Positions 23,317-60,445 of a stretch of 64,000 bases of DNA are shown in pieces; the stretch's first letter is position 1, and each line of letters starts with the position of its first letter. The DNA is taken from NCBI GenBank assembly GCA_000002445.1, contig CM000207.1, positions 896,001 to 960,000 of the forward strand, given 5' to 3'. The position numbers were made by a program, and so were the translations under genes. The DNA is from Trypanosoma brucei (taxonomy: Eukaryota). The notes under the pieces are model-generated. The model was not told where the DNA came from. It saw nothing but the letters and a program-made list of their open reading frames with translations, and did no database searches.

Positions 23317-24552
23317 ATGTTTCAAAAAGCACTTCGTCGACTGCAGCAACAGGCATCACAGAATCCACCAGTTGGTTCCGCCAATATTCCTTCACCCTAC
23401 GCAACGGAAGGTGGGCACGTCCCCATTTGGTCCATCGTAAACGGCTTCGTGCAGAAACGTAATTGGGTGTTCCGTAACCCTGAGTGGTGTGACCTTTGCA
23501 AAGAACCTGTGGCATTGTGGGTGAACCATCACGGTCGTAAGGACCACGCCTTAATGGACATGCACTATACACAAATGATGGAATATCCGAGGCGGTGGAA
23601 CCCCGAGGAAGTTCTCGTGGCATTTTTTGACGAACTACAACTCCCCGTAGAAACGTATCAGCGTAGCTATACATGTTACGAACGTGCCCATAGGAATGAG
23701 CTTTACTCCATGCTTGTGGAGTTGGAGGAGGCCAAAATGCTTTACTTTGGGGAGCCGCGAAACACTTACCTTCACCGAATGCAAGGTGGTTTGCGTGGTA
23801 TGGACCATCAGGGTGCACTTGTGCTGCACCGCTACATCCTAGGCCCCTTCATGCGGCTATACCCCAATGCTCACATACAGGACTTCTCAAACCTCGTGGA
23901 CTTTGTAACCTGCGCGTACAATATGGAAACTGTTTACGATTTGTGTGGTTTCTACACACTTGATAAAGTAGCATTAAAGGCCGACTATAAACCGAGCTCA
24001 CCGGCAGCTTTGGGGTTAGGAGGAATCGCCGTACACTCCTCCCCTTCGCATGGATTTGTTCAGAACGCGGCAGAGTCCCAGCAGCAGTCGAGGCGAGCGA
24101 GTTCAACCGCTTCAACGGGGTCTCGTAGTGCTGCGGACATGGATGAAGAGGCTTTTTCACGTAAGGCTGTTTTTGTTAGGCAGTTGTTAGGTCAACTGCG
24201 ATGGTTGACACTTCCATGTGAAGAGCATCCGGCAGGTTGTAAATTCCCCCAACACCTGATGCTCTTGGGTGAGATTTGCCTCAAGTATCTTGTGGTGGAG
24301 ATAATAGCGGCACGCCTGTGTGAATATATGGTGCGAGTGGAGCCGGTGTGGCGTGACCATGGTTACGAGCGGGTCAAACTCAACGTTGATAAAATCATGA
24401 AACAGGGAAGGGATATATTACCCGAGCCAATAAAGTACTTTTACCGACCAATGTCACCCAATATGGATGACTTGTACAGTACCAAAGTAGGCGTGTTGGA
24501 TGAGGCACTGGAAAAGGCTGCGGTTACTCAATCACTCTCTAAAGGTGTGTAG
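23317..24552 (+). CDS. Conserved hypothetical protein (411 aa) with a single U1/matrin-type C2H2 zinc-finger-like motif
   Basis: ATG-initiated ORF downstream of a pyrimidine-rich tract (about 22990-23128). The motif CDLCKEPVALWVNHHGRKDH fits CX2CX9HX5H. The exact start is uncertain because an overlapping 72-aa uORF begins at 23244. Confidence 0.5.
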   Translation: MFQKALRRLQQQASQNPPVGSANIPSPYATEGGHVPIWSIVNGFVQKRNWVFRNPEWCDLCKEPVALWVNHHGRKDHALMDMHYTQMMEYPRRWNPEEVLVAFFDELQLPVETYQRSYTCYERAHRNELYSMLVELEEAKMLYFGEPRNTYLHRMQGGLRGMDHQGALVLHRYILGPFMRLYPNAHIQDFSNLVDFVTCAYNMETVYDLCGFYTLDKVALKADYKPSSPAALGLGGIAVHSSPSHGFVQNAAESQQQSRRASSTASTGSRSAADMDEEAFSRKAVFVRQLLGQLRWLTLPCEEHPAGCKFPQHLMLLGEICLKYLVVEIIAARLCEYMVRVEPVWRDHGYERVKLNVDKIMKQGRDILPEPIKYFYRPMSPNMDDLYSTKVGVLDEALEKAAVTQSLSKGV

Positions 24553-29402: not shown

Positions 29403-29861
29403 ATCGGGCAGAGTATACTCCTGGTCTGTCGTTTCCGCTCGCTTTGCATCACGTTAGGACCTTTGACATTTTGTGTGTTCGGTGAAGTCCGCTGGGTGGT
29501 CGGAGTATCCTGGGGCGAGAGAGTGGAGGGAAGGGCGAGAGAATTCTACCCCGTTACGTTGTTTCTTCTTTTTCTTTTTTTTATATCTTAAATAATTATC
29601 TTCTGATTTGTGCATTTGAGTTTGCTTCTGTTTTACCACGTGTGAAACGACAGCCAGTGTGCAATGTACCGGCAACACCTCTCTACATCTTTCCTTTGCT
29701 CCACATCTTCTTCGCCTGCTTCAACATCAACAGTGCATCACGTGTAGTGTACGGGAAAGCTAATAAGGGATCCTACACACAAGTAGGTGGTAGCGTACGA
29801 AGCTGCACGGACGGGAGGGGAAGCGGCCGCATCCGCGGTTCTTGACTTTAACGCACCTTTC

Positions 29862-35800: not shown

Positions 35801-36305
35801 ACCTCGACCACAGCGGCGGCGCCCATTTGGTGGCGTAGTCAACCTCCATGCAAAGCCGACAGAAGGTAAAGTGAGCCCAATAAACGACAGTATTCCCGAA
35901 ACTGGACAGGAAGAACAGCAAATTGGTGAAATATCTCTAAGGAGCGCCGATGAGGGTCATGCAAAGGAAGTGAGCACGCTGCTCACATCGACTGAAATGT
36001 GGAACGCCAAAGGAGAGGAGCTACACCCCTTTTCGGCAACCGTAGGTGAACCACTGGATGTGGCGACTTCGTCTTTATGGGTCGGAGAGCATCAAATGAA
36101 TTTAGCCGTTAGCGATGTGTGTGAGGAGGTGGTGTGTCACACGGAGTATCTTCCCAAGGATAGCTTGGAAATGAGTAGTGTGATTCTCTCGCTTAGCAGC
36201 TTCCACGTAATGCAAGAAGAGGAAGGAGGTGCCCGCCTTGCGCTTCTCAACGAAGAGCGGATCGGACGTGTTTTTCTCAACCGTCGACTAGTTATGGGAT
36301 TGTGA
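29862..36305 (+). CDS. Very large conserved hypothetical protein (about 2147 aa from the first ATG) with no domain I can recognise; acidic/coiled-coil segments lie near the C-terminus
   Basis: Uninterrupted 6.5-kb + strand ORF. The track start at 29787 is GTG. The first in-frame ATG is 29862 (MTFLYHRW...), which may make the 5'UTR start codon uncertain. A 67-aa uORF at 29642-29845 lies in another frame. Low-complexity E/R-rich stretch at about 34560-35100. Confidence 0.55.
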   Translation: MTFLYHRWYNDDFTIANTPSGSFRDVCMTWSYTDPRIKETTLIFLLSPSVALTEGAEGFVEHGLHALKIVHIRGATSQPSKGEVEEVVCCTVVEIVGSIPDGVVHGTGGVIFLSTRHFLFHIPTGEQSRTGGKEREDALDHFVFTEKNSWERRCGVVRPLYDVEPIRHVLYGAEGNKSPVLHIVTVVSQPSPSSVSMQSAVVDLLVVASSRDERDISQYSRTEQGLLGKTISRWRGSSKASGDSSVAVTHTFVVAVVRCEISTSADRPAAWKLLHLHVDRNVPFQRRLEELTGREDLCGVGCDRKGSNATAAHMDPSKCVWCYLPNEGGARAGYCGLVFALVPHKPSTKLTLVCGSYDPSGQSYRVGFVKGDDAHGVGPPLYEERDNTEEMLWSLAEGTHTVQMVMIGRPNEALHDNEGTCGGANFQGREGLRAQWRKSASSSTWMRKSGLATVLSFVVDFVDDGLHKSRNLRQGLHVAVCTAWERNRHGRFPLPRTVCWLGTIPLPIGQAATSAVLFHAEGNDEGMNVWRMMDRVNLSDCAAVCDDTVSWYHALPTSVVPTVAAPVSRTNLRCFVSVNTLLKKTQLTYVLDTRFVEEKTCEEQRPSLLSSLELSKLFYTRPAIAEEGHGAMYNRGATSDDCADLAAYVARSVASSSGPLMVAHIFNEAWRSVALVKHPETAVHAHDGVARDGLLPSTDGEMIALGDTVCHFLLLVLQELDWINSPQNTRLHILVLSILEAVYAEPQLPPSSRCFEEATNGGGKTQMLLVGVNEQRTVRLLLQGSGMWRRVAPMLFAWANYRFYGNGCENELEEDSDSLFEDTLRPFIEGWEKQENMAGFDSHACTASCNNDSESGESCLILKRCDVILRHLQHSQDCDKYRSAVAALFRGGVSLNRVTALASWAGDVQAVDPAVLLFQLLLEVCTQCEEHVQLAAAVDRETICQLTALVMQSRLPPVDTVKNDENSLPAAPDVLHSMSEVLSSWNFELLRDWPLGGTCGALPVVYLFYHMVGALMASPCDNMEDRRERCNIITHSVMLLQWLCGDDARQSTEVFGALISGKVPLVALCTVGGFAVQAGCAPSSGVPPCDAVARRSFNRVLYHLFVSPTTSVLPQLLLAEFGISYDYVSHEKIGFSVWKRVLEGDVAAAFSSRLLNQLHKSLGSFSNKKHPTRAVQVSLLLEYLRSVFMVSLPRLVMALGESEEIVEIALGSTIPSFIMSELSVDPVPPVEGCDNVTCVFFNVTREVKKLLHLYMEGSGEVRCLAMLFGVFCDSCKSLLGHVDDTENVRDSAQPGGVEREQSMFTFTLQEMYFISLQVLSSDMGRFVVVAELIRRSVRRQAVRDLEKSLHRFDASWLNNSSRLQEFISSAVANLDGVVSSLESVAPLYAHTLVMIFLDELVLLAGETTEAVGRVVASPSIPHEQGEGYYKGEVIVDLNDKLTKCVKQMAAEKWKGLRKEDRRLIARVLSSCLVPSSDEAFGDGGYEESDVHLQMRDVKVRMSKSLQRRTIDPTVMGIVVGEASANESDKFPVELRRNNDSDGVLKVGGDAERAEFALLVKEEAYVRRKLKGQLLDSYAELINGNGVHDSLAILYLALREEQRRRRFVEYVTECKDFVLDFAISLHMLMREYYNEGVYHLQEKALREMERRVGLLLLQEREARTAIEAVHSVGRDIYFCWEKEQRSLFEGESRCRLAMLEDEENTRDAIYEHFAKEEVAVVRRCEERLEEEAWRQEEEQWALEMKQREDEEVSAARTQNKKPSEGKRTGTSAFTRWQERRLQMVMVHEEVSEPMEQERCPTSSITEAEALPTTKPEILPRERTTAFVQDPVEALTSLVRTEPTEESVDGRGYSALFDSSESLFGAISRFQQQIISTVAPPPLSVAKQKEQEQGGEMPHQSPTELTANPHSSTQTQQPVGSEWEWGWDEVPDDAGGSWKVSRNDCKTGVATENYLTTRIPDEKKEEFSEKIIKLEALSKAVKPRPQRRRPFGGVVNLHAKPTEGKVSPINDSIPETGQEEQQIGEISLRSADEGHAKEVSTLLTSTEMWNAKGEELHPFSATVGEPLDVATSSLWVGEHQMNLAVSDVCEEVVCHTEYLPKDSLEMSSVILSLSSFHVMQEEEGGARLALLNEERIGRVFLNRRLVMGL

Positions 36306-40745: not shown

Positions 40746-41345
40746 ATGTCCTGCGGTGATGCGAAACTCAACCACCCTGCGCCTCACTTCAATGAGGTGG
40801 CGCTGATGCCTAATGGCACTTTCAAGAAAGTTGATCTCGCCTCTTACAGGGGAAAGTGGGTGGTACTATTCTTTTATCCTCTCGACTTCACGTTTGTGTG
40901 CCCTACTGAAATCTGCCAATTCTCTGACCGCGTGAAGGAGTTCAACGACGTCGATTGTGAGGTTATTGCATGCTCAATGGACAGCGAATTCTCACATCTT
41001 GCATGGACAAATGTTGAACGCAAGAAGGGTGGATTGGGGACGATGAACATTCCCATCCTCGCTGATAAAACGAAATCAATCATGAAGGCTTATGGTGTAC
41101 TTAAGGAGGAAGACGGTGTTGCATACCGCGGTCTTTTCATCATTGACCCCCAACAGAACCTTCGTCAAATTACCATCAACGATCTTCCAGTTGGTCGTAA
41201 TGTTGACGAAACACTTCGACTTGTGAAGGCCTTCCAGTTTGTGGAAAAACACGGTGAGGTGTGCCCCGCTAACTGGAAACCTGGAAGCAAGACAATGAAG
41301 GCTGATCCCAACGGATCCCAAGATTACTTCAGCAGCATGAACTAA
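40746..41345 (+). CDS. TXNPx: Tryparedoxin peroxidase (cytosolic typical 2-Cys peroxiredoxin), copy 1
   Basis: 199 aa. Peroxidatic Cys context FTFVCPTEI and resolving Cys context [12 protein letters not shown]. The whole protein is the 2-Cys Prx fold ([10 protein letters not shown]...[25 protein letters not shown]). Confidence 0.92.
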
Positions 41346-42992: not shown

Positions 42993-43592
42993 ATGTCCTG
43001 CGGTGATGCGAAACTCAACCACCCTGCGCCTCACTTCAATGAGGTGGCGCTGATGCCTAATGGCACTTTCAAGAAAGTTGATCTCGCCTCTTACAGGGGA
43101 AAGTGGGTGGTACTATTCTTTTATCCTCTCGACTTCACGTTTGTGTGCCCTACTGAAATCTGCCAATTCTCTGACCGCGTGAAGGAGTTCAACGACGTCG
43201 ATTGTGAGGTTATTGCATGCTCAATGGACAGCGAATTCTCACATCTTGCATGGACAAATGTTGAACGCAAGAAGGGTGGATTGGGGACGATGAACATTCC
43301 CATCCTCGCTGATAAAACGAAATCAATCATGAAGGCTTATGGTGTACTTAAGGAGGAAGACGGTGTTGCATACCGCGGTCTTTTCATCATTGACCCCCAA
43401 CAGAACCTTCGTCAAATTACCATCAACGATCTTCCAGTTGGTCGTAATGTTGACGAAACACTTCGACTTGTGAAGGCCTTCCAGTTTGTGGAAAAACACG
43501 GTGAGGTGTGCCCCGCTAACTGGAAACCTGGAAGCAAGACAATGAAGGCTGATCCCAACGGATCCCAAGATTACTTCAGCAGCATGAACTAA
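42993..43592 (+). CDS. TXNPx: Tryparedoxin peroxidase, copy 2 (nucleotide-identical to copy 1)
   Basis: The CDS is identical to 40746-41345 at the nucleotide level, and so is about 211 bp of 5' flank. The repeat offset is 2247 bp. Confidence 0.92.
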
Positions 43593-47692: not shown

Positions 47693-48347
47693 GCGCATCA
47701 TTTTTACTCTTTCTTCCCTCCCCCCCCCACACACTCGGCAACAGTTCCCCCTCTCTGTTAAGATCTGCTGCGATTTGGTTCAGCGACATTTTATTTGTAG
47801 GCCCGTGCCACCTTTTCCTTCCAAGTTTTGGTTCTATGGATAACATGAATACGTGTAATTCGTCCACACTTGTCCTACATTTTTGTTCCTTTTCAATTTT
47901 GTTTACCCTGTACTGTTAATCCGCATTGGCGCGCTTTGGAGAGTTACATGAGGGAAGAGAGGCGCTTGTGTCTTATTTCTTATTCCAATCTGTTGCAGGA
48001 TTGTGCGTGGATTTAGGCCTCCCCGTATCGTCCGTCGTTGGATCCTGGTTTAGTATCTGCTGTCACTATTTTGCACCCTTTTACCTTTTTTCTGGTGTCC
48101 CATTTGTTAAGTTGGCTGTAATCGGCTTTTAAACCTCAAGGCGCTTTGAAAGAATAGTTTACAACTTTGTTTCCTATTGAACCATTCGTTTAGTACTGTC
48201 AAAGGAAGCAAAGGTGTGAAGAAGAAGAAAGGACAAAAAACCGAAGAAGCGTATTATTTATTCATCTATTTATTTATTAGTTAGTGATACCACGCAGATT
48301 CAATATCGAAGCATTGATCAACCGTGATTGAACATTTAAAAAAATCA

Positions 48348-51326
48348 ATGATGCGCCGTGCTTCTTACTGCGCGGGCCATGCCTTCACTTCGCTCACCGT
48401 CGTTGGGTCCCGTCGATTCTTTCAGGGTGAAAGATGTGAAGCGGAAATTGTAAAACTGACAAAGGAGCGCGGCATCTTCAGTGATGCCTCAGTCGAAGCT
48501 TCTGTGCACCAGTTGATGTCTCGACTCTCCGACAGCCCATATGTTCGTCATTACACGGATGCAGAAGTATCGGCGCATGCTCACGGGTTTCTTTGTGCAA
48601 AGGCAAGGAGTGCACTGGGTGAGCCGTTTGAGCATTTTCACGAAAGTGACGATTCGGCCTTCTACATTTGCCGAAAGGACCAGGCAAGTCAGCTGCGAGC
48701 CGTGCGGCAGTTGACCAAGTTTGTCAGCCGCGAAAGGGAAACCAAACAATCTGTCTCTGTGCGTTGTTACACTGCCGGTGACAGTGACATTGCCGTCTTC
48801 ACCGCCAAAATACGTCCTTTTGTGAACCCCAATCCGGAAAAGGGTGAAACGGACATCGGACAACTTGCGAGTTCCGCTTTTTTGGAGGAGCGTTCACCAG
48901 AGATGCAGGAGCGATATCAGGACCTCATCAACCGCTTCCACGAATCAGTTGTTCCAGTTCACACTGTGCGCGAAGTGGATGGTGAAGTTTGTTTTTCCAT
49001 GATCATGGCCGCAGACCGCTCCTACTACATCGCGACGTTGCAGACAGTCATACAGGAGATCCCCGGCGCTGTCGTCACACGCTGTTTCTCGGAGACTTTT
49101 TCCAATGACACTCATGTTTACACGTATTTTGTTCGAGGTGCTACAAGTCAGCAGCTTAGCGATCGCGCCTCTCTAGTGCCCTTCCTTCCCACCCGCCCCC
49201 GCAGTTTGATTACGCGCCTTCACGAGGATATGGTGTTCAACACGGAACAAACAGTGTACACGGATGCTGCAGTCATTTTCGCCTTCTACTTTACCCCACA
49301 GCCGACATCCGAAGATTATCGTCATCTACGCAGTTTGGTGTCGAAGGAACCCAACGGATTGAGTCGTCTCAACAATCTTCGCACAACACTCAGTCTCGAG
49401 ATGATGTCGGAGCGGTATATCCTCACACTCATCTCCACTTACCCCGAGTTCATGAAGGAGATATATGAGGATTTCCAAGTTGGCACCACACACGAGCGAC
49501 GCTGTGCAATCCGGGAAAAAATCACCACCCGCTTCAGGGAGGATCAGCGCTCCGAGCACGACTTGGGCATCTTCAATGCATTTCTGCAGTTCAACGAGGT
49601 GGTTTTAAAGCACAATTTCTTTAAACAGCATAAGGTGGCGCTCTGTTTCCGCCTCGACCCTTCTTTTCTTCGTTCATTGGGGTACCCACGAGTACCACAT
49701 GGTGTTTTTCTTCTCGCTGGCGCGCAGTGGCGTGGATTCCATGTGCGCTTTACCGACATCGCCCGCGGCGGTGTGCGCATGATTATTTCGAAGGACACCA
49801 TGTACCGCCGAAACAAGCGCTCTGTTTTCCAGGAAAACTACAACCTTGCCCTCACCCAGTTGCTGAAGAATAAGGACATACCGGAGGGTGGCAGCAAGGG
49901 AACCATTCTTGTCTCATCTCGCTACCTGAATACATTCAACCAGCCTCTTTGTGAGAGGATTTTCTTGCAGTATGCTGATGCACTATTGGATGTTGTCATT
50001 CCAGGAGAGGAAGGTATCGTCGATCGACTGAAGACACCAGAGATCATTTTCCTTGGGCCTGATGAACACACGGCAGGCACTTTCCCGTCCGTTGGCTCTC
50101 TGTTCAGCAAGAAGCGCGGGTACAGTGCGTGGAAATCCTTTACAACTGGTAAGGATGCTTCACTGGGAGGTATTCCTCACGATACTTATGCCATGACAAC
50201 TCGTTCAGTCCGTACGATGGTTCGTGGGGTGTATGAGAAACTTGGACTCGATGAAGCAAGTCAGACAAAGTTTCAGACAGGTGGCCCGGACGGTGATCTT
50301 GGCTCCAATGAGATTCTGCTGAGCAAGGAAAAGACACTGGCGGTATTGGATATTTCAGCCTCACTTTTTGATCCCGAGGGACTCAACAAGGAGGAGCTGA
50401 AGCGCCTCGCAACTGCGCGAAAACAACTGCGGGACTTTGATAAGTCCAAATTGTCATCGAAAGGTTTCCTTGTACTGACAGGGGATAAGAACGTGACGCT
50501 CCCAGATGGTACACACGTCAGCGATGGCGTCTCATTCCGTGATGAGTTCCATCTTACGAAGTACAGTGCCGCCGATGTGTTTGTGCCATGCGGTGGGCGT
50601 CCCCGCAGCGTTACGCTTGCAAATGTTGGTCGATTCCTCAACTTAAGCGCCGCTGACAACGACTCTCTACTTGCTGGGGGCAGCATTCAGCTAAAAACCC
50701 CGAAATACAAGATAATTGTGGAGGGTGCCAACCTTTTTATATCGCAGGATGCGCGTCTTGCTATCGAGCGCTGCGGTATTGTTTTGATTAAGGATGCATC
50801 TGCAAATAAGGGTGGTGTCACTTCCTCATCACTTGAGGTGTATGCGGGGCTGGCGCTTTCCGACGAGGAGCACGCGCAGCACATGTGCGTCAAGGATCCT
50901 AACAATGTGCCGGAGTTCTACAAGAAGTATGTGCTAGACATTATTGAGCGCATTGAAAGTAACGCCCGCCGTGAGTTTGAGGCCATCTGGCGTGAACAAC
51001 AGGTACAAGAAGGGATGCCCAAGACTCTCATTGCCGACTCACTAAGCGAGAAAAATGTAAGAGTGCGTGCCAGTATTCTTTCGAGTGACATGTGTGAGAA
51101 CAAAGAACTCGTTCGCTACGTTCTCAGCAAGTACACCCCCAAAACTCTACTTGAAGTGGTCCCACTCGAAACACTAATGGAGCGCGTGCCCCTCGAGTAC
51201 CAAAAGGCCATTTGTGCAATGTGGCTTGCATCGGAGTATGTGTATACCACCGGCATCAGCGGTAATGAATTTGACTTCTTTACTTTCATGACAAAACACA
51301 TGGAGCAGGCCAAGCACATCTCTTAA
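48348..51326 (+). CDS. GDH: NAD-specific glutamate dehydrogenase, large (about 110 kDa) class
   Basis: 992 aa from the first ATG. The catalytic-lysine region DIPEGGSKGTILV corresponds to GGGKGG. Dinucleotide-binding glycine loop TGGPDGDLGSNE. FVPCGGRP and IIVEGANLFISQDAR are the ELFV-dehydrogenase C-domain. The track start at 48324 is GTG. Confidence 0.8.
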   Translation: MMRRASYCAGHAFTSLTVVGSRRFFQGERCEAEIVKLTKERGIFSDASVEASVHQLMSRLSDSPYVRHYTDAEVSAHAHGFLCAKARSALGEPFEHFHESDDSAFYICRKDQASQLRAVRQLTKFVSRERETKQSVSVRCYTAGDSDIAVFTAKIRPFVNPNPEKGETDIGQLASSAFLEERSPEMQERYQDLINRFHESVVPVHTVREVDGEVCFSMIMAADRSYYIATLQTVIQEIPGAVVTRCFSETFSNDTHVYTYFVRGATSQQLSDRASLVPFLPTRPRSLITRLHEDMVFNTEQTVYTDAAVIFAFYFTPQPTSEDYRHLRSLVSKEPNGLSRLNNLRTTLSLEMMSERYILTLISTYPEFMKEIYEDFQVGTTHERRCAIREKITTRFREDQRSEHDLGIFNAFLQFNEVVLKHNFFKQHKVALCFRLDPSFLRSLGYPRVPHGVFLLAGAQWRGFHVRFTDIARGGVRMIISKDTMYRRNKRSVFQENYNLALTQLLKNKDIPEGGSKGTILVSSRYLNTFNQPLCERIFLQYADALLDVVIPGEEGIVDRLKTPEIIFLGPDEHTAGTFPSVGSLFSKKRGYSAWKSFTTGKDASLGGIPHDTYAMTTRSVRTMVRGVYEKLGLDEASQTKFQTGGPDGDLGSNEILLSKEKTLAVLDISASLFDPEGLNKEELKRLATARKQLRDFDKSKLSSKGFLVLTGDKNVTLPDGTHVSDGVSFRDEFHLTKYSAADVFVPCGGRPRSVTLANVGRFLNLSAADNDSLLAGGSIQLKTPKYKIIVEGANLFISQDARLAIERCGIVLIKDASANKGGVTSSSLEVYAGLALSDEEHAQHMCVKDPNNVPEFYKKYVLDIIERIESNARREFEAIWREQQVQEGMPKTLIADSLSEKNVRVRASILSSDMCENKELVRYVLSKYTPKTLLEVVPLETLMERVPLEYQKAICAMWLASEYVYTTGISGNEFDFFTFMTKHMEQAKHIS

Positions 51327-53689
51327 ATGTTTCACCAATTCGATGAAATTAGTGAGTTAACAAACCAATCATACGGGAGGAAACTGCAGCAGTATCTTTA
51401 TACACGCACATAGTTATGTGCATGTATATTTGTATATGCGTGTGTGTGGGAGACATTTGAGGGAAGAAGATACAAATTTGAAGATGGGAAGGAAACAAAA
51501 TTCAAGAAGAAAAACGAGTGAAAGGGCATTAGCTAAAGAAAAAGACGATAAACGCACACAAAAAAAAATACACCAGTAGATGGAGAAAACGTTTATTTAT
51601 TTTTTTTTACTTTTTTTTACTTGTTTGAAGTGTGAACGGGTGGCACGTAACCAGTGGGGCAGGGGGGGGGAAACAAATGGAAATGTTTAAAATTTAAAAA
51701 AAAACTGAAACCCGCTAAAGTTTAGGTGGTGAATTTGTGCTTGCGTTTGTAACCAACTGTAAATATGTATAGAAAATATCCATGCATATTTATTTTTTTA
51801 ATTAAATTATGGTTTATGCATGTAATAATGCAGTGAAACATGAAGAGATGAAATTGTATTGGTATATGGGCCCTGGTTTTCAGGTAACAGAATCTGTACG
51901 CGTGTTTAGTGGGTTACTTTTTCTTCTTTTCTCCCGTTTCCCTTTCTCTTTTAGTGATGGTGCTAACAATAATTATAAATATATTTATATTTCTTTACTT
52001 TATTCCGTCTTCCACCTGATCATTATGTTCAGGTGTAGGCATTAGGGAGGGGCGGGTGATGTGATGTGTGTGGTGTGTATGTGGGGAAGACAACACATAA
52101 ATTTCATTTGTGCATTTCCCCCTCCCCCCCCTCTCCTTCTTCCTCCTTTCTTTCCTTCGAAATCTGCAGAAACAAAAAATAATGGTTATGATGACGATAC
52201 GGAAGAAGACGGAAGGGTGGATGCACTGGTAGAAGTAAAAGTAGTGGGAAAGGGGGAGAACGTTAAGTTAAGGTAACGTGAGACAGGGTAAAGAAGAATA
52301 TATATATATATATAATTTGATAAACAAATGTTGAAAAAAAAACGCAACGACGCCATGCAATTTGAGCGTGTACCAGTTCTCCATTGGAGTGATAAACGGC
52401 ATCAGGTCTAGTTTACAGCTTTAACTTTTTTTTACTTTTTGTGTGCTATTTTCTTTCTCTTTTTCGTTCTCTTTTTACTATTATTATTATTTTGTTTTGA
52501 GGGTAGAACTTCTCCGACTTTATCGTTTCTTCCTTTGGTAGAAGGTTATCCACCATTTATTATTATTTTTTTGTTTTCCCTCTTTTTTCTTTATTTTCTC
52601 CTTATTTTTCATGTGGAGTACCGTTTCATTGAGTTTTTATGCAAAGAAAATGAAACTGGCTAAAGGGAAGAGAGAAAGCAACAAACAGTGAAGGAAAAGA
52701 AGAGGAGGGAATCGAATGAATGAATGAATGAATAAACAGGCATTGGCATATAACTTATAACCGCAATAGAAGTATTCCCAATTTTTATGCCACTTGCCTT
52801 CTGTTTTGACTATTAAAGTAATTTTGTTTTTATTTTACTCTTTTTATTTTGTTTTAATTCTTCATTCATTCTTATTCTGACTTTCCATCCCCTCTCCTGC
52901 TTTCGTTTTCATTTTATATCAGCTTTACACACTCAGCAGCCACTCAATAAAATTAGCGAAAAAATGTCGATTACTGTGATGACACCGAAAGAGTTGTAAT
53001 GATCATTTGTCTATGAAATATATATTTGGGGCCGCGCGTGTTTATGTATGCTGAGTGTGTGGATATTTTTTTCTTTTCCTCCCCCATCTAAAGCGTTGTG
53101 GGGGATAAATAATTAGTTTCAGGGATTGAAGGAACGGTGATTGTGTGTGAGAGGAATTGTTTTGGTGTTGTGACAAATTCCGCTGCTATTCAAATTCATT
53201 TATTGCGTTTCGGAGATTGACAGTTGAATCGGCGTTTTGGTGCCGGTGAAACTGCATGCGCAAATAGGAGGACTGTTCTTTTATACCTTTTGGTTTTATT
53301 ATTTTATTTTCCTCACCCATACCCTACGCTTCTTGTTATCGTTTCCCAATTCACTGCGATTGTTAAAGATTAATAAATTCTGCGCGCGGTTGAGTGGTTC
53401 TAGGCAACCTTCTTTTTTTTTTTCTTGTAGTCTCACGCATATAAACTGAACATCGTTTTTTTTTTTGCTCCCTCTTTTTTTTTTGAAAAAAAAAAAGAAG
53501 TTTCATCGGTAAAAGGTCAGAAAAGTGTCATCTTAGCTTGAGAAGTAGGAAAGCAAATAGTAAGGAAGATAAAAATATCAAACAAACAGTCGTAAGCATT
53601 GGTGTAGACAAATATATATACCATCAGAGGTTGTAGTAGAACCTTCTTTTTCATTAAAAACAAAAATCCAAAAAAAAAAGACAAAAATA

Positions 53690-54256
53690 ATGCCTGCTGC
53701 ACCGCTTCCCGGCGAGGTTGCGAAGTTCTGCAGCCCCCTTTACATGCACAAGAGAATACTTAGAGCCGCCGCTCCTAAACCGCCGACAGTTTTCACCGCG
53801 AAAGACAACTCAAAAACGGCTTTTCATGTGGTAACGCAACGACCAGGATTTGCAACCACTCCTTACACTGTCAGTCGTTGGTATCTTAAAGAAAAGGTTC
53901 ACAGCAGCAATAGGAACCGTTTGGAAGGATTGTACGAATGTGTACTTTGCGCCTCATGCACGGGAAGTTGCCCTCAGTATTGGTGGAATCGCGAACTTTT
54001 CCTCGGCCCTGCGGTGCTTCTTCAATCGTACCGGTGGCTGATTGAACCCCTCGACCGTGATTTTGACAGTCGGGTAAAGATGTTTGAACATGGCCCGCTT
54101 GTGAACTTTTGTCATAATATCTTCAACTGCAGCATCACATGCCCAAAGTTTCTCAACCCGGGAATGGCTTCGAAGGAAATTAAGCGCCTTTCATCACCAG
54201 CAACGCTGCGTGTGGGGCCACCGCTGGAGGATGCAAAAGTCGCCTCCAAGTATTAA
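53690..54256 (+). CDS. SDH2C: Succinate dehydrogenase iron-sulfur subunit, C-terminal half (SDH2C) as a separate gene, with a kinetoplastid-type N-terminal extension
   Basis: CVLCASCTGSCPQYWWNRELFLGPAVLLQSYRWLIEPLDRDFDSRVKMFE...FCHNIFNCSITCPKFLNPGMASKEIKR carries the [4Fe-4S] and [3Fe-4S] cysteine clusters of SdhB (CxxCxxCxxxCP ... CxxxxxCxxxCP). It lacks the N-terminal [2Fe-2S] ferredoxin half. Confidence 0.85.
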   Translation: MPAAPLPGEVAKFCSPLYMHKRILRAAAPKPPTVFTAKDNSKTAFHVVTQRPGFATTPYTVSRWYLKEKVHSSNRNRLEGLYECVLCASCTGSCPQYWWNRELFLGPAVLLQSYRWLIEPLDRDFDSRVKMFEHGPLVNFCHNIFNCSITCPKFLNPGMASKEIKRLSSPATLRVGPPLEDAKVASKY

Positions 54257-55419
54257 AAGCTGTTTGGTATAGTCAAGTAGCTTATTTGTGCCGTCTATAC
54301 TGTGATATGACCGCTCATAGGAATGTTAGTGAAGTGAAGGTTGCCCTTTTTTTCTTTTTCTTTCTTTTTTTTTTTGATTCATTATGAGTGTACGCGATTT
54401 CCGGTGACCATGTCGGCTTATGCCCTATGTGTGTGAGTGTGTGGGTTTCTTCTTCGTTGTTTTTTTTTTCGACCCAACCTCCTGATGTAAGTGGGTCAAG
54501 GGTGTTTATATGTTGGTGTGTAGGAAGGTGTTTATGTTGAACTGAACGTTTATTTGGTTTGGTTCACATTTGATGATCGTGTAGTGTGTTCCTCTTTCTT
54601 CATTTTGTTTGGTTTACCTTTTCTTCTGCCTTAGCGCAACCACCGTCCTTAACTACATTGGTGCATTCATATGTTCGTATATATTTTTATATGTATGAAA
54701 AAGTGTGTTTGCACATACGCGTGTGTGCATTTTTCTTTTGGCATGTCATGTGTTGCTGTTGCTCTATTTTTTGCAAGTGTTGCCACTACTATTACTTTGT
54801 ACGCAATGCATCTGCCTCAACTTTTAGCAGTAGTTGATCCGCGCGTTTTAGTGGGTGATTTGTTGCATTAGCTTTTTGGGGAAAGGAGAGGGAAAGGTTT
54901 TACCATTATTATCAGCATAATTATACGTTCTCACTTACTTACTATCATCATTATTAGTCATTATTTATTAATGAATTTAGTGTTAGTATTATTACCGTCC
55001 ATCTCTCGCTTTCACTTTATCTTCCTTGTGATTTATCTTACCCCTAGTGTTTTGGCGCTGTGTTGAAGGGAGGGGGAGTGCGGCATCTCAGATCTTTGTC
55101 CTTTCATGCCCTTCAACGCACTGCATTGTGTTATTTCATTTTCTACGTTTCTGACTGTCACCTTTCTGTGCCTTCTTTTTGTCCTGTCTTATTTTACTAA
55201 TTGCCGGGGACGTATATATATGTATGTATATATAATCATTCATTTATTCATTTGACATTACATGTTTGCTTCTCCGGACTTGTGCTTCTTCTGTTTTTAT
55301 TCTTGGTTATCATCTCTGAGGCGGCTGTAACTTAGGTTGCTGCGAGTCCGCCGACCTTGTAATTAAAGGGAATAGTATCGAACGCTAAAGGCGTGCTCGC
55401 ATACAGGAAGGAGGGGGAA

Positions 55420-57288
55420 ATGCTTCTAAAGTTCACGGCAACTGGAGATTTTCTCCGTCCTTTCATTAATCTACTTCAAGCCACGACAAAACAAGGGGTG
55501 GTGCTGTTTTTCCAACCACTTGATAATGTGTTGGTTCTTCGCACGGTGGGGCCAAACAGTACCTTGTATTTAGTTGCTAGTGTTGGCACGGAACATTTCC
55601 ATGAGTATCGTTATGACAAAGGGGATGCTACTGCGGACTCATTTGCGGTCGATGGTATTTTAGAGGCGGGGAAGGACTCTTCAGCAGAAGTTAACAACAT
55701 GGAACATCATGTTCCTGTTTTGAGTAGAGCGTTACTTGCCACAGTGTTGCGGCAACCGCAGGGCCTTCACTTGATTAGTGTTCAGTATAGCTCTAGAGAC
55801 GGTGATGGTATTTCTAAGGATGTGATGCAGTGGGAATGCGTTTGTGGGGATGGAATTGTAAAGGTGTTTATGTTGCCGCTAGTGCGAGAGAAACTGGAGC
55901 GGGCGTATGTTAACCCTGAAAGGTATGTTTTTGACGCGTGTGCGTCTGCGAAAACGTGGGGTCACTTCTTGCGGCACCTACCAGGATCGCAATTCATTGT
56001 TGTTCAACCACATGATACACATCTTGAGCTTCTGGTGATGAATTGTTCGGAGGCCGCCGGACACGAAGTTGACTCGAAGGTGCTAGTTCGACAGGGGGAT
56101 TTACTTTTTATGCGCCGGATACACCGAGCAACAGAAGGTAATGATGATGGATATTCGTTATTACCCGGCAAATACGCAGAACTTAAACCCCTCAAGCATA
56201 TTTGTCTCTTGGCCGATCAACTTGGTATGATGATCCGCCTGCGCTCTGCCATGGGGGGCGTTCCCCTCTTCGTGGAAACACTTACAATGCAAGAAGCTCA
56301 GTCCCTGAAGGCTGGAGGTGCTCCAACGGTCTCAATGGATACCGTGATAGATACTACGGCACCCGATTTGTATAATCGAGGCATGGCACCCATAAGCAGT
56401 TCTCTCCGAATAAGATACGCGGTGTACATTCCCGCAATCGACATTTGGCCATCATCCGCGGATAGTTTCGACGCGCCGACAGATGGTGGTCGCCGCTCGG
56501 TTGCCTCCACAGCAACAAGTCACAGAGATAGTCGCGATTTGACTAACATAGCGTCGCCGCGTGGATCTGTTGGGCTTCCTCAAGCAGATCCATGTCTCGG
56601 CTGTGCTGAAACCCCGGTAGCAAGTGCAACAACCGCAGTCAATGGGGTAACATCTGCCCCATTGCCGACGGGTTTGCATTTTGGTACAAACCAAGTGGGT
56701 ACAGGCGGTGGACTCAACCCGCAGACATTGGCTAGCCCAACACCTGCTCCACTTACTTCAGGTTATTCTGTGGGGTCCCCTGTGATTTCAGCGCAGTCAG
56801 CTCCATCGTATGACCCTCCCCCCTCGGGAGTTGTGATCGACGGTAACATGATGATGGTGAGGTCAACATTTCAGGTAGGCAACTCCGTTGGTTCGGAACA
56901 TACTAACTATAAGCGCTCTCGTGACAACGTGACGTCTGAAAGGTCTTCTGCGTTGCCCTTTTCACTCAGTGAGAGGGTACCGTGTACCGATAATTTTGGT
57001 CCCCAACCCATCGAACAGCGCGGGCACGAATCGACAACTTGGAGCACACTGACGCCGGAAAGACGCAGCTCCTTTCAACTCAATCACGATGAACAGTCGA
57101 AATTGCCTCCCATGGGAAGCAGGCAGCTTCCACTCGACGCACGGTACCCTTTGGATTTTAACGCTTATGTGCTGGAGTTGGACGAGGGCCGGTGTGAAGA
57201 TGACTTGGATGAAGATGATGAGGATCTGCAGCGCTTCCTTGATAGTTGCGCCTCAGTGCTTGTTGTCCCCCAAACACAGAGTTACTAA
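55420..57288 (+). CDS. Conserved hypothetical protein (about 622 aa) with a Ser/Pro/Gly-rich low-complexity C-terminal half and an acidic tail
   Basis: ATG at 55420 (MLLKFTATGDF...). The track start at 55393 is GTG. An upstream pyrimidine tract lies at about 55085-55200. No recognised domain. Confidence 0.5.
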   Translation: MLLKFTATGDFLRPFINLLQATTKQGVVLFFQPLDNVLVLRTVGPNSTLYLVASVGTEHFHEYRYDKGDATADSFAVDGILEAGKDSSAEVNNMEHHVPVLSRALLATVLRQPQGLHLISVQYSSRDGDGISKDVMQWECVCGDGIVKVFMLPLVREKLERAYVNPERYVFDACASAKTWGHFLRHLPGSQFIVVQPHDTHLELLVMNCSEAAGHEVDSKVLVRQGDLLFMRRIHRATEGNDDGYSLLPGKYAELKPLKHICLLADQLGMMIRLRSAMGGVPLFVETLTMQEAQSLKAGGAPTVSMDTVIDTTAPDLYNRGMAPISSSLRIRYAVYIPAIDIWPSSADSFDAPTDGGRRSVASTATSHRDSRDLTNIASPRGSVGLPQADPCLGCAETPVASATTAVNGVTSAPLPTGLHFGTNQVGTGGGLNPQTLASPTPAPLTSGYSVGSPVISAQSAPSYDPPPSGVVIDGNMMMVRSTFQVGNSVGSEHTNYKRSRDNVTSERSSALPFSLSERVPCTDNFGPQPIEQRGHESTTWSTLTPERRSSFQLNHDEQSKLPPMGSRQLPLDARYPLDFNAYVLELDEGRCEDDLDEDDEDLQRFLDSCASVLVVPQTQSY

Positions 57289-57814
57289 GATTGATAGCCT
57301 TCTCTTTATATATCTTCCCTCGAAGCGCAGTGACGAGCGACTCAATGAGAGGCGAAGGCGGTGATATTGACAGTGGTGAGAAATGTGGGAGACACGTAAA
57401 TTATGGGAGTCCCCTTGCCTCCTTTGTTGTTGCGCAGCGAATGGTATTAGTGCCCACATGCCCGTTCTAGTGGGTTGAATGCATTTAAAAATAACATTCA
57501 CTTCGTGTCACAAGCGCATAAATGTGCGAGCAGATAGAGGTATATGCACACGTGTTCACTTATGTTTGTATTGTACTCCTATGCCGTTTCAGCAGTGTCA
57601 CTGATCTGTCTTTTACACTATTCGCGTGACCGGCCCTTCACCTTCCTCCCAGCCTTTTCCTGATTGTCTAATGAACGAAAGGGAAGAGAAAAAATAAAGG
57701 GAATTAATACACTCATACATATATACATAAATATTAATACATATCATATATACGTGTCAGTAACCTCAGCGTAAAGGCAAAAAAAAAGTGAAGCAAGAAG
57801 AGGGGAGTGTCATT

Positions 57815-58978
57815 ATGAGTCAGGATAGGGGCAAGCGGCAGGTTTTGGATGCTACAGTGCGTGATGACAACCCGTATAGCCGGCTCATGGCACTTCAGCG
57901 GATGGGTGTTGTGGAGAATTACGAGGCCATCCGCCAAAAATCCGTTGCAATAATCGGCGCTGGGGGTGTTGGCAGTGTCGTAGCAGAGATGCTCACGCGT
58001 TGTGGTATTGCGAAAATCCTTTTGTTTGACTACGATAAAGTGGAGCTCGCCAATATGAACCGGCTCTTTTACAGGCCCGAGCAGCAGGGGATGTCAAAGG
58101 TGGCGGCGGCAAAACAAACACTGGAAGGAATCAACCCAGACACCGAAATTGTGCCTTTCGACTTCAGTATTACAGCAGCGGAACACTGGCAGGACTTCGC
58201 TGATGCGTTAACAAAGAACGGTGGTGTAAAGCCCAGCACTCCGGTAGATTTACTGCTGTGTTGTGTTGATAACTTCCAAGCCCGCCTAACGGTCAATTAC
58301 GCTTGTTTACTGTTCAACATTCCGTGGATGGAAAGCGGTGTTGCAGAAAATGCGGTGAGTGGTCACATCCAGCTACTCCTTCCCGGTGTGACACCCTGCT
58401 ACGAGTGCTGTCCACCCCTTGTCGTGGCGACAGGAATGCCAGAGGCCAAGCGTGAGGGCGTTTGCGCTGCGTCTCTTCCAACCACGATGGGCATCGTAGC
58501 GGGGTTTCTCGCACAGAACGCCCTAAAGTACCTGCTGAATTTTGGAACTGTTAGTGAATACATTGGATATGACGCAGTGAGAGATTATTTCCCCTCTGTT
58601 ACAATTAAAGCGAATCCCGACTGCCGCAACGCCACCTGCGTTGAGAAGCAGCGGGAGTACGCGGAACGGAAGGCGAGGTTGGGTGACGCAGCCCATCCCC
58701 TACACAACGCTGCCAAACATCGCACCGAGCGGGAGGCGAAGGAACGCGAGGCGGCAAAAGCAAGGGCAGCAGCATCAGCGAAAGAGTGGGGAATAGTAGT
58801 TGAAGAACACGGGAAAGATGATCTTTCCGTAAACACAAAGGGAGACACAGGTGGTGTGGAATACGCGTATGGCGCCGGCGGTAAAGCGGAGGGGAATGCC
58901 CCAAGGGAAGACGAGTTTGTTGCCGCGGATAGCGGGGAGTCGCTGGAGGCACTTATGGCCAAAATGAGAGCCATGTAG
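57815..58978 (+). CDS. UBA5: Ubiquitin-like modifier-activating enzyme 5 (UBA5, E1 for Ufm1)
   Basis: [80 protein letters not shown] matches human UBA5 ([79 protein letters not shown]). The catalytic Cys context [18 protein letters not shown] and the zinc site [13 protein letters not shown] are present. The first ATG is at 57815. Confidence 0.85.
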
Positions 58979-59623: not shown

Positions 59624-60445
59624 ATGTCGAAACAGGAGCCGTTGCAGAAGATTCCCGGTGAGTGTCCGACGCCCCGAGAACTGGGTAAGGCAGGCTGGAT
59701 TATACTCCACAGTGCTGCCGCTGTGTTTCCGTACAACCCTACACCCACACAACAGGAGGCATTCCGCAACTTTTTACACGGCTGGTCCCACGCGTATGCT
59801 TGCAGCCATTGTGCATACCACATGCGACGTTACTTTCACCAGAATCCACCCGTCGTCACGGATAAGTTGGCACTCAACCGATATCTCTGTGAATTTCACA
59901 ACGCTGTAAATGAGAGAGTTGGAAACAAGATATATGATTGTGACCCCATGAATGTTCTCCGCCGGTGGCACCCAACGTTTCCAGATATGGAGGATCAACC
60001 TACAATCGAGGAACAGGTGAAGTCACTCGAATTAAAGGAAAAGAATGAGACACCGCAAGGCGTTAGTGATCGATGGCGACAGCAGAACTCTTCCGCGTCA
60101 CCAGATGGTAACGTTGGTCGATGGTCAGTGGGGGACGCGCGGTGGACCGATACAACTAGCGAGTCGCGTAGGACTAATGTCGGTGAGATCTCAGCGGGAT
60201 GGGGAACCGCTGGTGAGAAGATGAAACAAAGAAATAGTGCGGGGGACGGAGTCAGTGATGCGGGTGCGAGCGAAAAGAAGTGGTGGCGATGGGGAAACTC
60301 CACTTCGAGTTCCACTACCGCAACCATCGCAACACCTTCTGCAGCTGAACCTGCCGAGGATGTTGAGGCTAGCGTTACCTCTATATTGAGTAAACTAAGG
60401 GCTTGCATGGTTTACTGCCCTGATGATAAGAAATCATCAGCGTGA
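59624..60445 (+). CDS. ERV1: Erv1/ALR-family FAD-linked sulfhydryl oxidase with a kinetoplastid-type C-terminal extension and a C-terminal CxxxC arm
   Basis: Erv core WIILHSAAAVFPYNPTPTQQEAFRNFLHGWSHAYACSHCAYHMRRYF...YLCEFHNAVNERVGNKIYDCD carries the active-site CxxC (CSHC) and the structural Cys pair. About 150 aa of extension follows, ending RACMVYCPDDKK (C-x3-C). Confidence 0.85.
   Translation: MSKQEPLQKIPGECPTPRELGKAGWIILHSAAAVFPYNPTPTQQEAFRNFLHGWSHAYACSHCAYHMRRYFHQNPPVVTDKLALNRYLCEFHNAVNERVGNKIYDCDPMNVLRRWHPTFPDMEDQPTIEEQVKSLELKEKNETPQGVSDRWRQQNSSASPDGNVGRWSVGDARWTDTTSESRRTNVGEISAGWGTAGEKMKQRNSAGDGVSDAGASEKKWWRWGNSTSSSTTATIATPSAAEPAEDVEASVTSILSKLRACMVYCPDDKKSSA

What the first reader, a model, noticed from the sequence alone, without database searches (positions are those of the whole stretch)
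53690..54256. Free-standing C-terminal half of the succinate dehydrogenase Fe-S subunit (SDH2C)
The 188-aa product carries only the [4Fe-4S] and [3Fe-4S] cysteine motifs of SdhB, after an extension of about 90 aa with no SdhB similarity. The [2Fe-2S] plant-ferredoxin half is absent. This matches the unusual split Ip subunit described for trypanosomatid complex II, with SDH2N encoded elsewhere, which is a rare example of a gene fission of a core respiratory subunit. The N-terminal extension must supply mitochondrial import and the heterodimerisation interface.
Basis: partly seen in the sequence, partly recalled or inferred. Interest (0 to 1): 0.5.

Follow-up and report, generated by a model that had tools for sequence, protein, structure and literature searches.

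The report
Known split SdhB C-half, trypanosome

Summary
The ORF 53690-54256 (+) is real and encodes 188 aa. [quoted passage not shown] All seven cysteines that bind the [4Fe-4S] and [3Fe-4S] clusters are present. No [2Fe-2S] half lies in the ORF, upstream of it, or anywhere else in the 64 kb window.

The protein is 100% identical to the T. brucei-group 'succinate dehydrogenase, putative'. Two published Tb927.9.5960 primers match the ORF and span the stated 422 bp. The partner SDH2N (242 aa, Fer2_3 domain only) sits on a different chromosome in the same assemblies. Together the halves cover canonical SdhB except for a loop of about 10 residues.

The split was described by Gawryluk & Gray (2009), whose supplement prints this exact sequence, and by Morales et al. 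(2009).

- The non-SdhB extension is about 70 aa, not about 90.
- It is not a typical presequence. Its first 15 aa have zero net charge and three prolines, it is conserved from Met1, and published proteomic coverage suggests most of it stays in the mature protein.

A role for the extension in joining the two halves is plausible but untested.

Verdict: correct identification, already known, low interest.

The parts
53690..54256 (+). SDH2C (SdhB-c, Tb927.9.5960) coding sequence, 188 aa plus stop codon
   Evidence: ORF listed. The product is 100% identical to T. brucei-group protein P0001. Published gene-specific primers match at 53831 and 54252 and span 422 bp. The sequence is printed in the Gawryluk & Gray 2009 supplement.
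53690..53899 (+). N-terminal lineage-specific module (aa 1-70), not homologous to SdhB. Predicted helix 16-27 and three beta-strands at 33-39, 43-50 and 61-68.
   Evidence: hhalign probability is 0.1% against canonical SdhB and 0.9% against SDH2N. There is no consistent Pfam hit and no natural PDB match. Mean pairwise identity in the family is 0.49, against 0.27 for the C-terminal tail. The secondary structure came out the same in two AF2 runs.
53900..54211 (+). SdhB C-terminal (bacterial-ferredoxin-type) domain, aa 71-174, carrying the [4Fe-4S] and [3Fe-4S] clusters and the quinone-site residues
   Evidence: hhalign aligns aa 71-174 to canonical SdhB positions 162-263, E = 1.6e-49. phmmer against PDB gives E = 8e-34. 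The top 26 Foldseek hits are all SdhB or FrdB C-terminal halves.
53939..53974 (+). Cysteine motif C84-x2-C87-x2-C90-x3-C94-P. By homology, three Cys bind [4Fe-4S] and the fourth binds [3Fe-4S].
   Evidence: Motif found. All four Cys are invariant in alignments A1, A4 and A6. Ser89 replaces the canonical Cys (E. coli C154), as noted.
54110..54145 (+). Cysteine motif C141-x5-C147-x3-C151-P. By homology, two Cys bind [3Fe-4S] and the last binds [4Fe-4S]. Includes the quinone-site His142.
   Evidence: Motif found. The residues are invariant.
53408..53484 (+). Two polypyrimidine tracts (53408-53426 and 53468-53484), probably the signals for trans-splicing of the SDH2C mRNA (inferred)
   Evidence: Tracts found. 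No ATG lies between 53480 and the start codon at 53690. Their role in trans-splicing is inferred from general knowledge of trypanosomatid mRNA processing and was not tested.

Best explanation
This is the SDH2C (SdhB-c) gene of a Trypanosoma brucei-group parasite, Tb927.9.5960. It encodes the C-terminal half of the iron-sulfur (Ip) subunit of mitochondrial complex II.

- SDH2N (chromosome 8 in T. brucei, 242 aa) carries the [2Fe-2S] domain and the first helix that follows it.
- SDH2C (chromosome 9, 188 aa) carries the [4Fe-4S] and [3Fe-4S] clusters and the Ip part of the ubiquinone site.

The break falls in a variable surface loop, and only about 10 canonical residues are missing between the halves. 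Each half is made in the cytosol, imported separately, and assembled non-covalently. Together they restore the usual electron wire: FAD, then [2Fe-2S], then [4Fe-4S], then [3Fe-4S], then ubiquinone.

Shown here or in cited papers: the homology, the cluster ligands, the separate genes, ATOM40-dependent import, and listing as an inner-membrane complex II protein.

Inferred: the first ~70 residues of SDH2C are a conserved, lineage-specific module (one helix and three strands) that stays in the mature protein. It starts at the same loop where the ~100-residue C-terminal extension of SDH2N ends, so the two extensions probably pack together and help hold the halves. Import would then rely on a non-classical or internal signal, possibly the basic amphipathic helix at residues 17-27, rather than a cleaved N-terminal presequence.
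For: Identity of the gene:
- 100% identical to P0001, 'succinate dehydrogenase, putative', T. equiperdum/T. brucei group; the L. donovani orthologue is named SDH2C.
- Published Tb927.9.5960 primers match at 53831 and 54252, giving 422 bp as printed.
- Computed mass 21,280.5 Da against the published 21.281 kDa.
- Neighbouring genes match the published gene order: glutamate dehydrogenase upstream and the ThiF/UBA5-like gene downstream.

Homology and ligands.

The partner:
- SDH2N (P0121) is 242 aa with Fer2_3 only.
- It lies on a different chromosome record of the same assemblies: FN554971.1 against FN554972.1, and CM010679.1 against CM010680.1.
- It is absent from the window.

Split point: SDH2N covers canonical positions 31-151 and SDH2C covers 162-263 of the same reference SdhB.

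Literature:
- Gawryluk & Gray 2009 describe the split and print this sequence as T. brucei SdhB-c, 188 aa, chromosome 9.
- Later papers cite the purified T. cruzi heterodimeric SDH2N:SDH2C.
- The protein drops to 0.21 of control on ATOM40 RNAi.
- It is listed as a complex II component and as 'mitochondrion - IM'.
- Both halves are detected in T. brucei proteomes.

The extension as part of the mature protein:
- It is conserved from Met1; mean pairwise identity is 0.49, against 0.27 for the C-terminal tail.
- The first 15 aa carry +1/-1 charge and three prolines, against +5/0 in SDH2N.
- Published sequence coverage is 83.5%. If the whole 70 aa were removed, coverage could not exceed about 63% (the meaning of that column is inferred from its position).
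- The secondary structure was the same in two AF2 runs.
Against: - Nothing contradicts the identification.
- The mechanistic claims about the extension are inferences. Both AF2 models are only moderate (mean pLDDT 52 and 66).
- No complex prediction could be run, and no euglenozoan complex II structure was found in the PDB or the papers checked.
- The primary biochemical paper (Morales et al. 2009) could not be read here, so physical association of the two halves is cited second-hand and comes from T. cruzi, not T. brucei.
- The profile comparison does not support homology between the kinetoplastid/diplonemid extension and the Euglena SdhB-c N-terminus (probability 0.2%). That the module is as old as the split is therefore unproven.
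Confidence: 0.93

Rival explanations
1. The N-terminal ~70 residues are a long cleavable mitochondrial presequence. They are removed after import, so mature SDH2C is just the ferredoxin-like domain. This is the import half of the first reader's claim.
For: The protein must reach the matrix side of the inner membrane, and its level depends on ATOM40. Residues 17-27 form a predicted amphipathic helix with net charge +3. Euglena SdhB-c has a confidently predicted targeting peptide.
Against: The first 15 residues have zero net charge and three prolines, unlike the partner SDH2N (+5/0). TargetP and MitoProt gave no confident prediction for trypanosomatid SdhB-c. The segment is conserved from Met1 (MP[SA]AP...) and is more conserved than the C-terminal tail. 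Published 83.5% sequence coverage cannot be reached if 70 of 188 residues are removed (column meaning inferred). Removal of a short peptide of about 14 residues or fewer is not excluded.
Confidence: 0.08
2. The ORF is a 5'-truncated remnant (pseudogene) of a full-length sdhB, or an artefact of ORF calling, and has no function.
For: It lacks half of a normally single protein, and it sits after a long AT-rich intergenic region.
Against: At least 40 relatives of similar length have all ligand cysteines invariant. A complementary N-half gene occurs in the same genomes. The protein is detected by mass spectrometry with 14-16 peptides and is listed as inner-membrane. A functional heterodimeric Ip is reported for T. 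cruzi.
Confidence: 0.01
3. It is the iron-sulfur subunit of a different enzyme, such as a quinol:fumarate reductase (FrdB-like) or another ferredoxin-like oxidoreductase, rather than of complex II.
For: Gawryluk & Gray note some FrdB-like substitutions near the [4Fe-4S] ligands, for example Ser in place of E. coli Cys154. That Ser is Ser89 here and is invariant in the family.
Against: Matches to SdhB are far stronger than to FrdB: E = 8e-34 against 3.6e-07 in PDB, and 9.5e-30 against 2.6e-10 or weaker in NCBIfam. The published phylogeny places both halves with SdhB. The protein is listed with complex II in T. brucei.
Confidence: 0.02

Closest known systems
Euglenozoan split SdhB: SdhB-c / SDH2C (Gawryluk & Gray 2009, BMC Res Notes 2:16; Morales et al. 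2009, J Biol Chem 284:7255)
   Same: This is that gene itself. The length is the same (188 aa), the chromosome is the same (chromosome 9 in T. brucei), and the sequence matches the one printed in the 2009 supplement. The partner SdhB-n is on chromosome 8.
   Different: Nothing differs in kind. This analysis adds four refinements.
- SDH2N keeps the first helix after the [2Fe-2S] domain, so the break lies in the following loop rather than exactly at the domain boundary.
- The two halves leave only about 10 canonical residues unaccounted for.
- The ~70-aa N-terminal part of SDH2C is a conserved module with no detectable relatives.
- Published proteomic coverage suggests it is retained in the mature protein.
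Canonical single-chain SdhB (e.g. E. coli 1NEK_B, avian 1YQ3_B, yeast 9KPT_B)
   Same: Residues 71-174 have the same C-terminal domain fold and sequence: 44-52% identity over about 104 aligned columns at rmsd about 3.7 A. The seven ligand cysteines and the Trp and His quinone-site residues are the same.
   Different: There is no [2Fe-2S] domain in the polypeptide. A 70-aa N-terminal module is added. Ser89 replaces the Cys next to a [4Fe-4S] ligand. The 'LYRCH' sequence before the last cluster motif reads 'VNFCH'.
Split nuclear Cox2 (Cox2a/Cox2b) of chlorophycean algae, apicomplexans and dinoflagellates
   Same: A core respiratory subunit is split into two separately imported nuclear-encoded halves. 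The extensions at the new termini are proposed to help the halves associate, and the C-terminal half lacks a classical cleavable presequence. Gawryluk & Gray draw this analogy.
   Different: It is a different complex (IV) and an unrelated protein family with membrane-spanning halves. The comparison is by analogy only, and nothing about it was tested here.

Membership tests
SdhB/Ip subunit, C-terminal half (euglenozoan SDH2C / SdhB-c) | Sequence and fold homology to the C-terminal (bacterial-ferredoxin-type) domain of SdhB | tested here: met
   phmmer against PDB gives E = 8e-34 for aa 73-168. hhalign gives E = 1.6e-49 for aa 71-174. NCBIfam SdhB models match only their C-terminal parts. The top 26 Foldseek hits are all SdhB or FrdB.
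SdhB/Ip subunit, C-terminal half (euglenozoan SDH2C / SdhB-c) | All seven cysteine ligands of the [4Fe-4S] and [3Fe-4S] clusters (CxxCxxCxxxCP and CxxxxxCxxxCP) | tested here: met
   C84, C87, C90 and C94, and C141, C147 and C151, are present. They are invariant in the family and against canonical SdhB.
SdhB/Ip subunit, C-terminal half (euglenozoan SDH2C / SdhB-c) | No [2Fe-2S] (Fer2_3) domain in the polypeptide or in-frame upstream | tested here: met
   No Fer2_3 hit at E <= 10. In-frame stops lie upstream of the ATG. tblastn of full-length SdhB and of SDH2N finds no N-half in the 64 kb window.
SdhB/Ip subunit, C-terminal half (euglenozoan SDH2C / SdhB-c) | A separate SDH2N gene in the same genome that supplies the [2Fe-2S] half | tested here: met
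   P0121 is 242 aa with Fer2_3 only. It lies on FN554971.1 and CM010679.1, while SDH2C lies on FN554972.1 and CM010680.1 of the same assemblies. It covers canonical SdhB positions 31-151.
SdhB/Ip subunit, C-terminal half (euglenozoan SDH2C / SdhB-c) | Ip residues of the ubiquinone site are conserved (the Trp after the first motif and the His at the start of the second; E. coli W164 and H207, numbering from my own knowledge) | tested here: met
   W98, W99 and H142 are invariant in the family. They align with 'YWWN' and 'CH' of yeast SdhB.
SdhB/Ip subunit, C-terminal half (euglenozoan SDH2C / SdhB-c) | Physical association with SDH2N and SDH1 in an active succinate:ubiquinone reductase | not testable with these tools
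   This is reported for purified T. cruzi complex II by Morales et al. 2009. That paper is not held here and is cited second-hand. T. brucei lists place Tb927.9.5960 in complex II.
SdhB/Ip subunit, C-terminal half (euglenozoan SDH2C / SdhB-c) | Mitochondrial localisation and import | not testable with these tools
   From the literature only. The ATOM40 RNAi ratio is 0.21 and the protein is flagged in the importome. It is listed as 'mitochondrion - IM'.
Classical cleavable N-terminal mitochondrial presequence | An extreme N-terminus rich in Arg/Lys, without acidic residues, and poorly conserved in sequence | tested here: not met
   The first 15 aa carry +1/-1 charge and three Pro, while SDH2N carries +5/0. 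'MP[SA]AP' is conserved from Met1. TargetP and MitoProt gave no confident prediction in Gawryluk & Gray. No dedicated predictor was available here.
LYR-motif (Complex1_LYR) proteins, considered for the conserved 'L[YF]xY[RK][RK]' helix at residues 17-27 | A match to the Complex1_LYR profile and a conserved [LIV]-Y-[RK] tripeptide | tested here: not met
   No Complex1_LYR hit for the full protein or for any of 30 extension sequences at E <= 10. The residue before the Tyr varies, and T. brucei itself reads L-Y-M-H-K-R.

The most novel reading that the evidence does not exclude
The conserved ~70-residue N-terminal module of SDH2C is not a targeting peptide. It is a lineage-specific structural 'clasp' (one helix and three strands) that stays in the mature protein. 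It would pair with the ~100-residue helical C-terminal extension of SDH2N at the split loop and so replace the lost covalent link. SDH2C would then be imported through an internal, uncleaved signal. Both canonical L(I)YR co-chaperone motifs of SdhB are lost in the two halves ('LIRF' for 'IYRW' in SDH2N, 'VNFCH' for 'LYRCH' in SDH2C). The conserved 'L[YF]xY[RK][RK]' helix in the module could therefore also have taken over recruitment of the Fe-S delivery machinery.
Probability: 0.3. Interest if true: 0.3.

Novelty: already known. Interest (0 to 1): 0.1.

Why it matters
The split Ip subunit is a rare gene fission of a core respiratory protein, and it has served as a shared derived character uniting Euglenozoa. 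It also makes trypanosomatid complex II structurally distinct from the host enzyme.

All of this has been published since 2009, and this exact T. brucei sequence is in that literature. The finding therefore adds no new biology.

What remains open is structural. No split Ip has been solved. How the two halves are held together is unknown. How SDH2C is imported without a classical presequence is also unknown. The boundaries and conservation data given here would help design those experiments.

Tried and rejected
1. The extension as a decayed remnant of canonical SdhB (duplication followed by decay). tblastn of a haptophyte SdhB extended the alignment back to SDH2C residue 32, and MAFFT placed 'YVLKD' under 'VFTAKD'. 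I rejected this for two reasons. Those canonical segments ('PVIKDFVVD' and 'FFRQYAYIRPF') are present in SDH2N. Profile comparison of residues 1-72 with canonical SdhB gives a probability of 0.1%.

2. Similarity of the extension to SDH2N, Pfam families or solved structures. Nothing was found: hhalign probability 0.9% against SDH2N, no consistent Pfam hit, and only an engineered protein in the PDB.

3. An LYR-motif reading of helix 17-27. There is no Complex1_LYR hit and the tripeptide is not conserved.

4. Homology of the kinetoplastid/diplonemid extension to the Euglena SdhB-c N-terminus. Only 'SKLYHYFRV' and 'SPLFxYRKI' resemble each other by eye, and hhalign gives 0.2%. This is inconclusive.

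5. The first AF2 run on the shallow family alignment was poor (mean pLDDT 52). A full-length canonical alignment misaligned the N-domain under the extension, so I did not use it. The run with trimmed canonical rows reached only pLDDT 66. That is enough to confirm the C-domain fold but not to place the extension.

6. Reading Morales et al. 2009 by DOI and by PMC id failed because the paper is not held.

7. The supplement of the 'Lessons from the deep' review held no SDH2 sequences.

8. Rfam and tRNA scans of the window found nothing.

Full report
**1. The observation**

Pfam finds only 4Fe-4S dicluster models (Fer4_17 and Fer4_8, aa 81-155) and no Fer2_3 domain, even at E <= 10. phmmer against all PDB chains aligns residues 73-168 to positions ~139-232 of mitochondrial and bacterial SdhB chains (best E = 7.9e-34). 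FrdB chains score far lower (E = 3.6e-07). NCBIfam SdhB models match only through their C-terminal parts.

The two ligand motifs are C84-x2-C87-x2-C90-x3-C94-P and C141-x5-C147-x3-C151-P. They are invariant across 32 relatives.

No N-terminal half is hidden nearby.
- The nearest upstream in-frame stop is 40 codons before the ATG, and several more lie further up.
- No forward frame between the upstream gene and the ATG has a stop-free stretch longer than 83 codons.
- tblastn with two full-length SdhB proteins and with T. brucei SDH2N finds nothing else in the 64 kb window.

One detail needs correcting. Profile-profile comparison places the start of SdhB homology at residue 71. The non-SdhB extension is therefore about 70 aa, not about 90.

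**2. What it is**

The protein is 100% identical to a protein that NCBI names 'succinate dehydrogenase, putative [Trypanosoma equiperdum]'. The L. donovani orthologue is named 'SDH2C / succinate dehydrogenase subunit 2C'.

The gene is Tb927.9.5960. Three results show this.
- The ImportOmics paper lists Tb927.9.5960 (Tb09.160.4380, Q38EW9) at 21.281 kDa, and the ORF product computes to 21,280.5 Da.
- The two PCR primers printed for that gene match the window once each, at 53831 (+) and 54252 (-), spanning exactly the stated 422 bp.
- The neighbours fit the published gene order. Glutamate dehydrogenase (Tb927.9.5900) is upstream at 48324-51326. A ThiF/UBA5-like gene (Tb927.9.6040) is downstream at 57788-58978.

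Over 12.5 kb the window is 99.4% identical to a T. equiperdum contig. It is 98.3-98.4% identical to T. b. gambiense and to another T. brucei-group assembly. The organism is therefore in the T. brucei group, but the strain is not determined.

**3. The partner and the split point**

I transcribed the T. brucei SdhB-n sequence from the 2009 supplement and searched with it. This recovered P0121, 242 aa and 100% identical, with the Fer2_3 domain only.

In assembly GCA_000210295.1 this gene is on FN554971.1 and SDH2C is on FN554972.1. In GCA_003543875.1 they are on CM010679.1 and CM010680.1. This agrees with the published chromosome 8 / chromosome 9 assignment.

Profile comparison shows that SDH2N covers positions 31-151 of a reference full-length SdhB and SDH2C covers 162-263. 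Only a variable loop of about 10 residues is missing between them.

SDH2N retains the last strand of the N-domain ('PVIKDFVVD') and the following 'FFRQYAYIRPF' helix. The break therefore lies just after that helix, slightly inside what is usually called the C-terminal domain.

**4. Prior knowledge**

Gawryluk & Gray (2009, PMC2663770) described the split sdhB of Euglena and trypanosomatids. They listed T. brucei SdhB-c as 188 aa and printed its sequence, which is this ORF's product apart from OCR glitches.

Later papers cite Morales et al. (2009) for the purified T. cruzi complex II with a heterodimeric SDH2N:SDH2C Ip subunit. That paper is not held in the library, so I could not read it. The split has since been reported in diplonemids as well.

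T. brucei datasets give further support.
- Both halves are detected as complex II proteins.
- Tb927.9.5960 is listed as a complex II component and as 'mitochondrion - IM'.
- Its abundance falls to 0.21 of control on ATOM40 ablation.

The finding is therefore correct but already known.

**5. The N-terminal extension**

*Conservation.* Residues 1-72 are conserved across kinetoplastid and more distant euglenozoan relatives from Met1 onward ('MP[SA]AP...SPL[FY]xY[RK][RK]...YTAKDN.KTA...NRWYLK.KV'). Mean pairwise identity is 0.49. The Fe-S domain scores 0.77 and the C-terminal tail 0.27.

*No relatives.* A profile of the extension has no detectable similarity to canonical SdhB (probability 0.1%) or to SDH2N (0.9%). 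It matches no Pfam family consistently and no natural solved structure. It is not a decayed copy of the canonical region, because those canonical segments are in SDH2N.

*Predicted structure.* Two AF2 runs gave the same elements: helix 16-27 and strands 33-39, 43-50 and 61-68, at pLDDT about 60-79. The better model (mean pLDDT 66) matches SdhB and FrdB C-terminal halves in the PDB over about 104 columns at about 3.7 A. The extension matches nothing.

*Targeting.* The first 15 residues carry +1/-1 charge and three prolines. SDH2N has a classical +5/0 N-terminus. Gawryluk & Gray likewise found no confident targeting peptide in trypanosomatid SdhB-c.

*Retention.* The ImportOmics table shows 83.5% in the column after the molecular mass, which I read as sequence coverage. 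If all 70 residues were removed, coverage could not exceed about 63% (inference).

I conclude that most of the extension is part of the mature protein. It begins at the same loop where the ~100-residue C-terminal extension of SDH2N ends, so the two probably lie next to each other and may hold the halves together. This is inference from geometry. It echoes the Cox2a/Cox2b analogy drawn in 2009.

Homology of this module to the Euglena SdhB-c N-terminus is not statistically supported.

No euglenozoan complex II structure was found in the PDB searches or in the Euglena and kinetoplastid cryo-EM papers checked.

**6. Mechanism**

By homology, electrons pass from FAD in SDH1 to [2Fe-2S] in SDH2N. 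They then pass to [4Fe-4S] and [3Fe-4S] in SDH2C and on to ubiquinone, at a site built partly from SDH2C residues (W98, W99 and H142 are conserved).

Ser89 replaces the Cys that hydrogen-bonds a [4Fe-4S] ligand in E. coli, as noted in 2009.

**7. Verdict**

Two corrections apply: the extension is about 70 aa, and it is not a typical presequence.

Novelty: already known. Interest: low.

The only open aspect is how the halves are held together and how SDH2C is imported. That needs a structure or truncation experiments.

Noticed in passing
window 40746-41345 and 42993-43592 (+): Two tandem genes encode a 199-aa 2-Cys peroxiredoxin (AhpC-TSA plus 1-cysPrx_C), probably tryparedoxin peroxidase. The coding sequences are 100% identical, and the repeat extends to 833 bp at 99.4% identity.
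   Followed up: partly
L005 3001-3729 (SDH2N, P0121), residues ~140-242: The ~100-residue C-terminal extension of SDH2N is conserved in kinetoplastids and diplonemids but much shorter in euglenids. It contains a helix-turn-helix pattern ('LLxLLDAxxxxGNVTxxxxxLxxLxxxGxxLD') that looks like a pentatricopeptide (PPR) repeat by eye. No Pfam family matches it at E <= 0.01.
   Followed up: partly
window 54098-54112 (SDH2C aa 137-141 'VNFCH'); SDH2N aa 31-35 'LIRFD' in L005: Both L(I)YR tripeptides of canonical SdhB are replaced in the split halves. 'IYRW' in strand 1 becomes 'LIRF' or 'LVRF', and 'LYRCH' before the last cluster motif becomes 'VNFCH' or 'VNMCH'. In human SDHB these motifs recruit the HSC20 co-chaperone for Fe-S delivery (my own knowledge; Maio et al. 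2014). How clusters are delivered to the split subunit may therefore differ.
   Followed up: partly
window 59624-60445 (+): An Erv1/ALR sulfhydryl oxidase gene lies about 5 kb downstream of SDH2C. The ImportOmics authors list SDH2C among proteins with twin Cx9C and Cx3C motifs. In SDH2C those motifs are simply the Fe-S ligand spacings (C84-C94, C141-C151, C90-C94, C147-C151), so the listing and the gene proximity are probably coincidental.
   Followed up: no
window 1-64000: Every ORF with a Pfam match is on the + strand: a CorA-like transporter, a USP7-like ubiquitin hydrolase, topoisomerase II, an OCRL-like inositol 5-phosphatase with RhoGAP, trypanosome TFIIB, NAP, peroxiredoxin (two copies), SKIP/SNW, polyprenyl synthetase, NAD-glutamate dehydrogenase, SDH2C, ThiF/UBA5, Erv1 and ribosomal protein S3. 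This fits a single polycistronic transcription unit. No tRNA and no Rfam family was found.
   Followed up: partly
window 18808-22848, 29787-36305, 55393-57288, 23317-24552, 217-1494 (+): Five long ORFs (1346, 2172, 631, 411 and 425 aa) have no Pfam match at E <= 0.001-0.01. The 631-aa ORF directly downstream of SDH2C corresponds to a 622-aa called gene that also has no Pfam hit in public assemblies.
   Followed up: no
window 51327-53689: The intergenic region between the glutamate dehydrogenase gene and SDH2C is 2.36 kb long and AT-rich (GC 0.36-0.40). It is full of low-complexity T- and A-runs and contains only short, repetitive ORFs.
   Followed up: no
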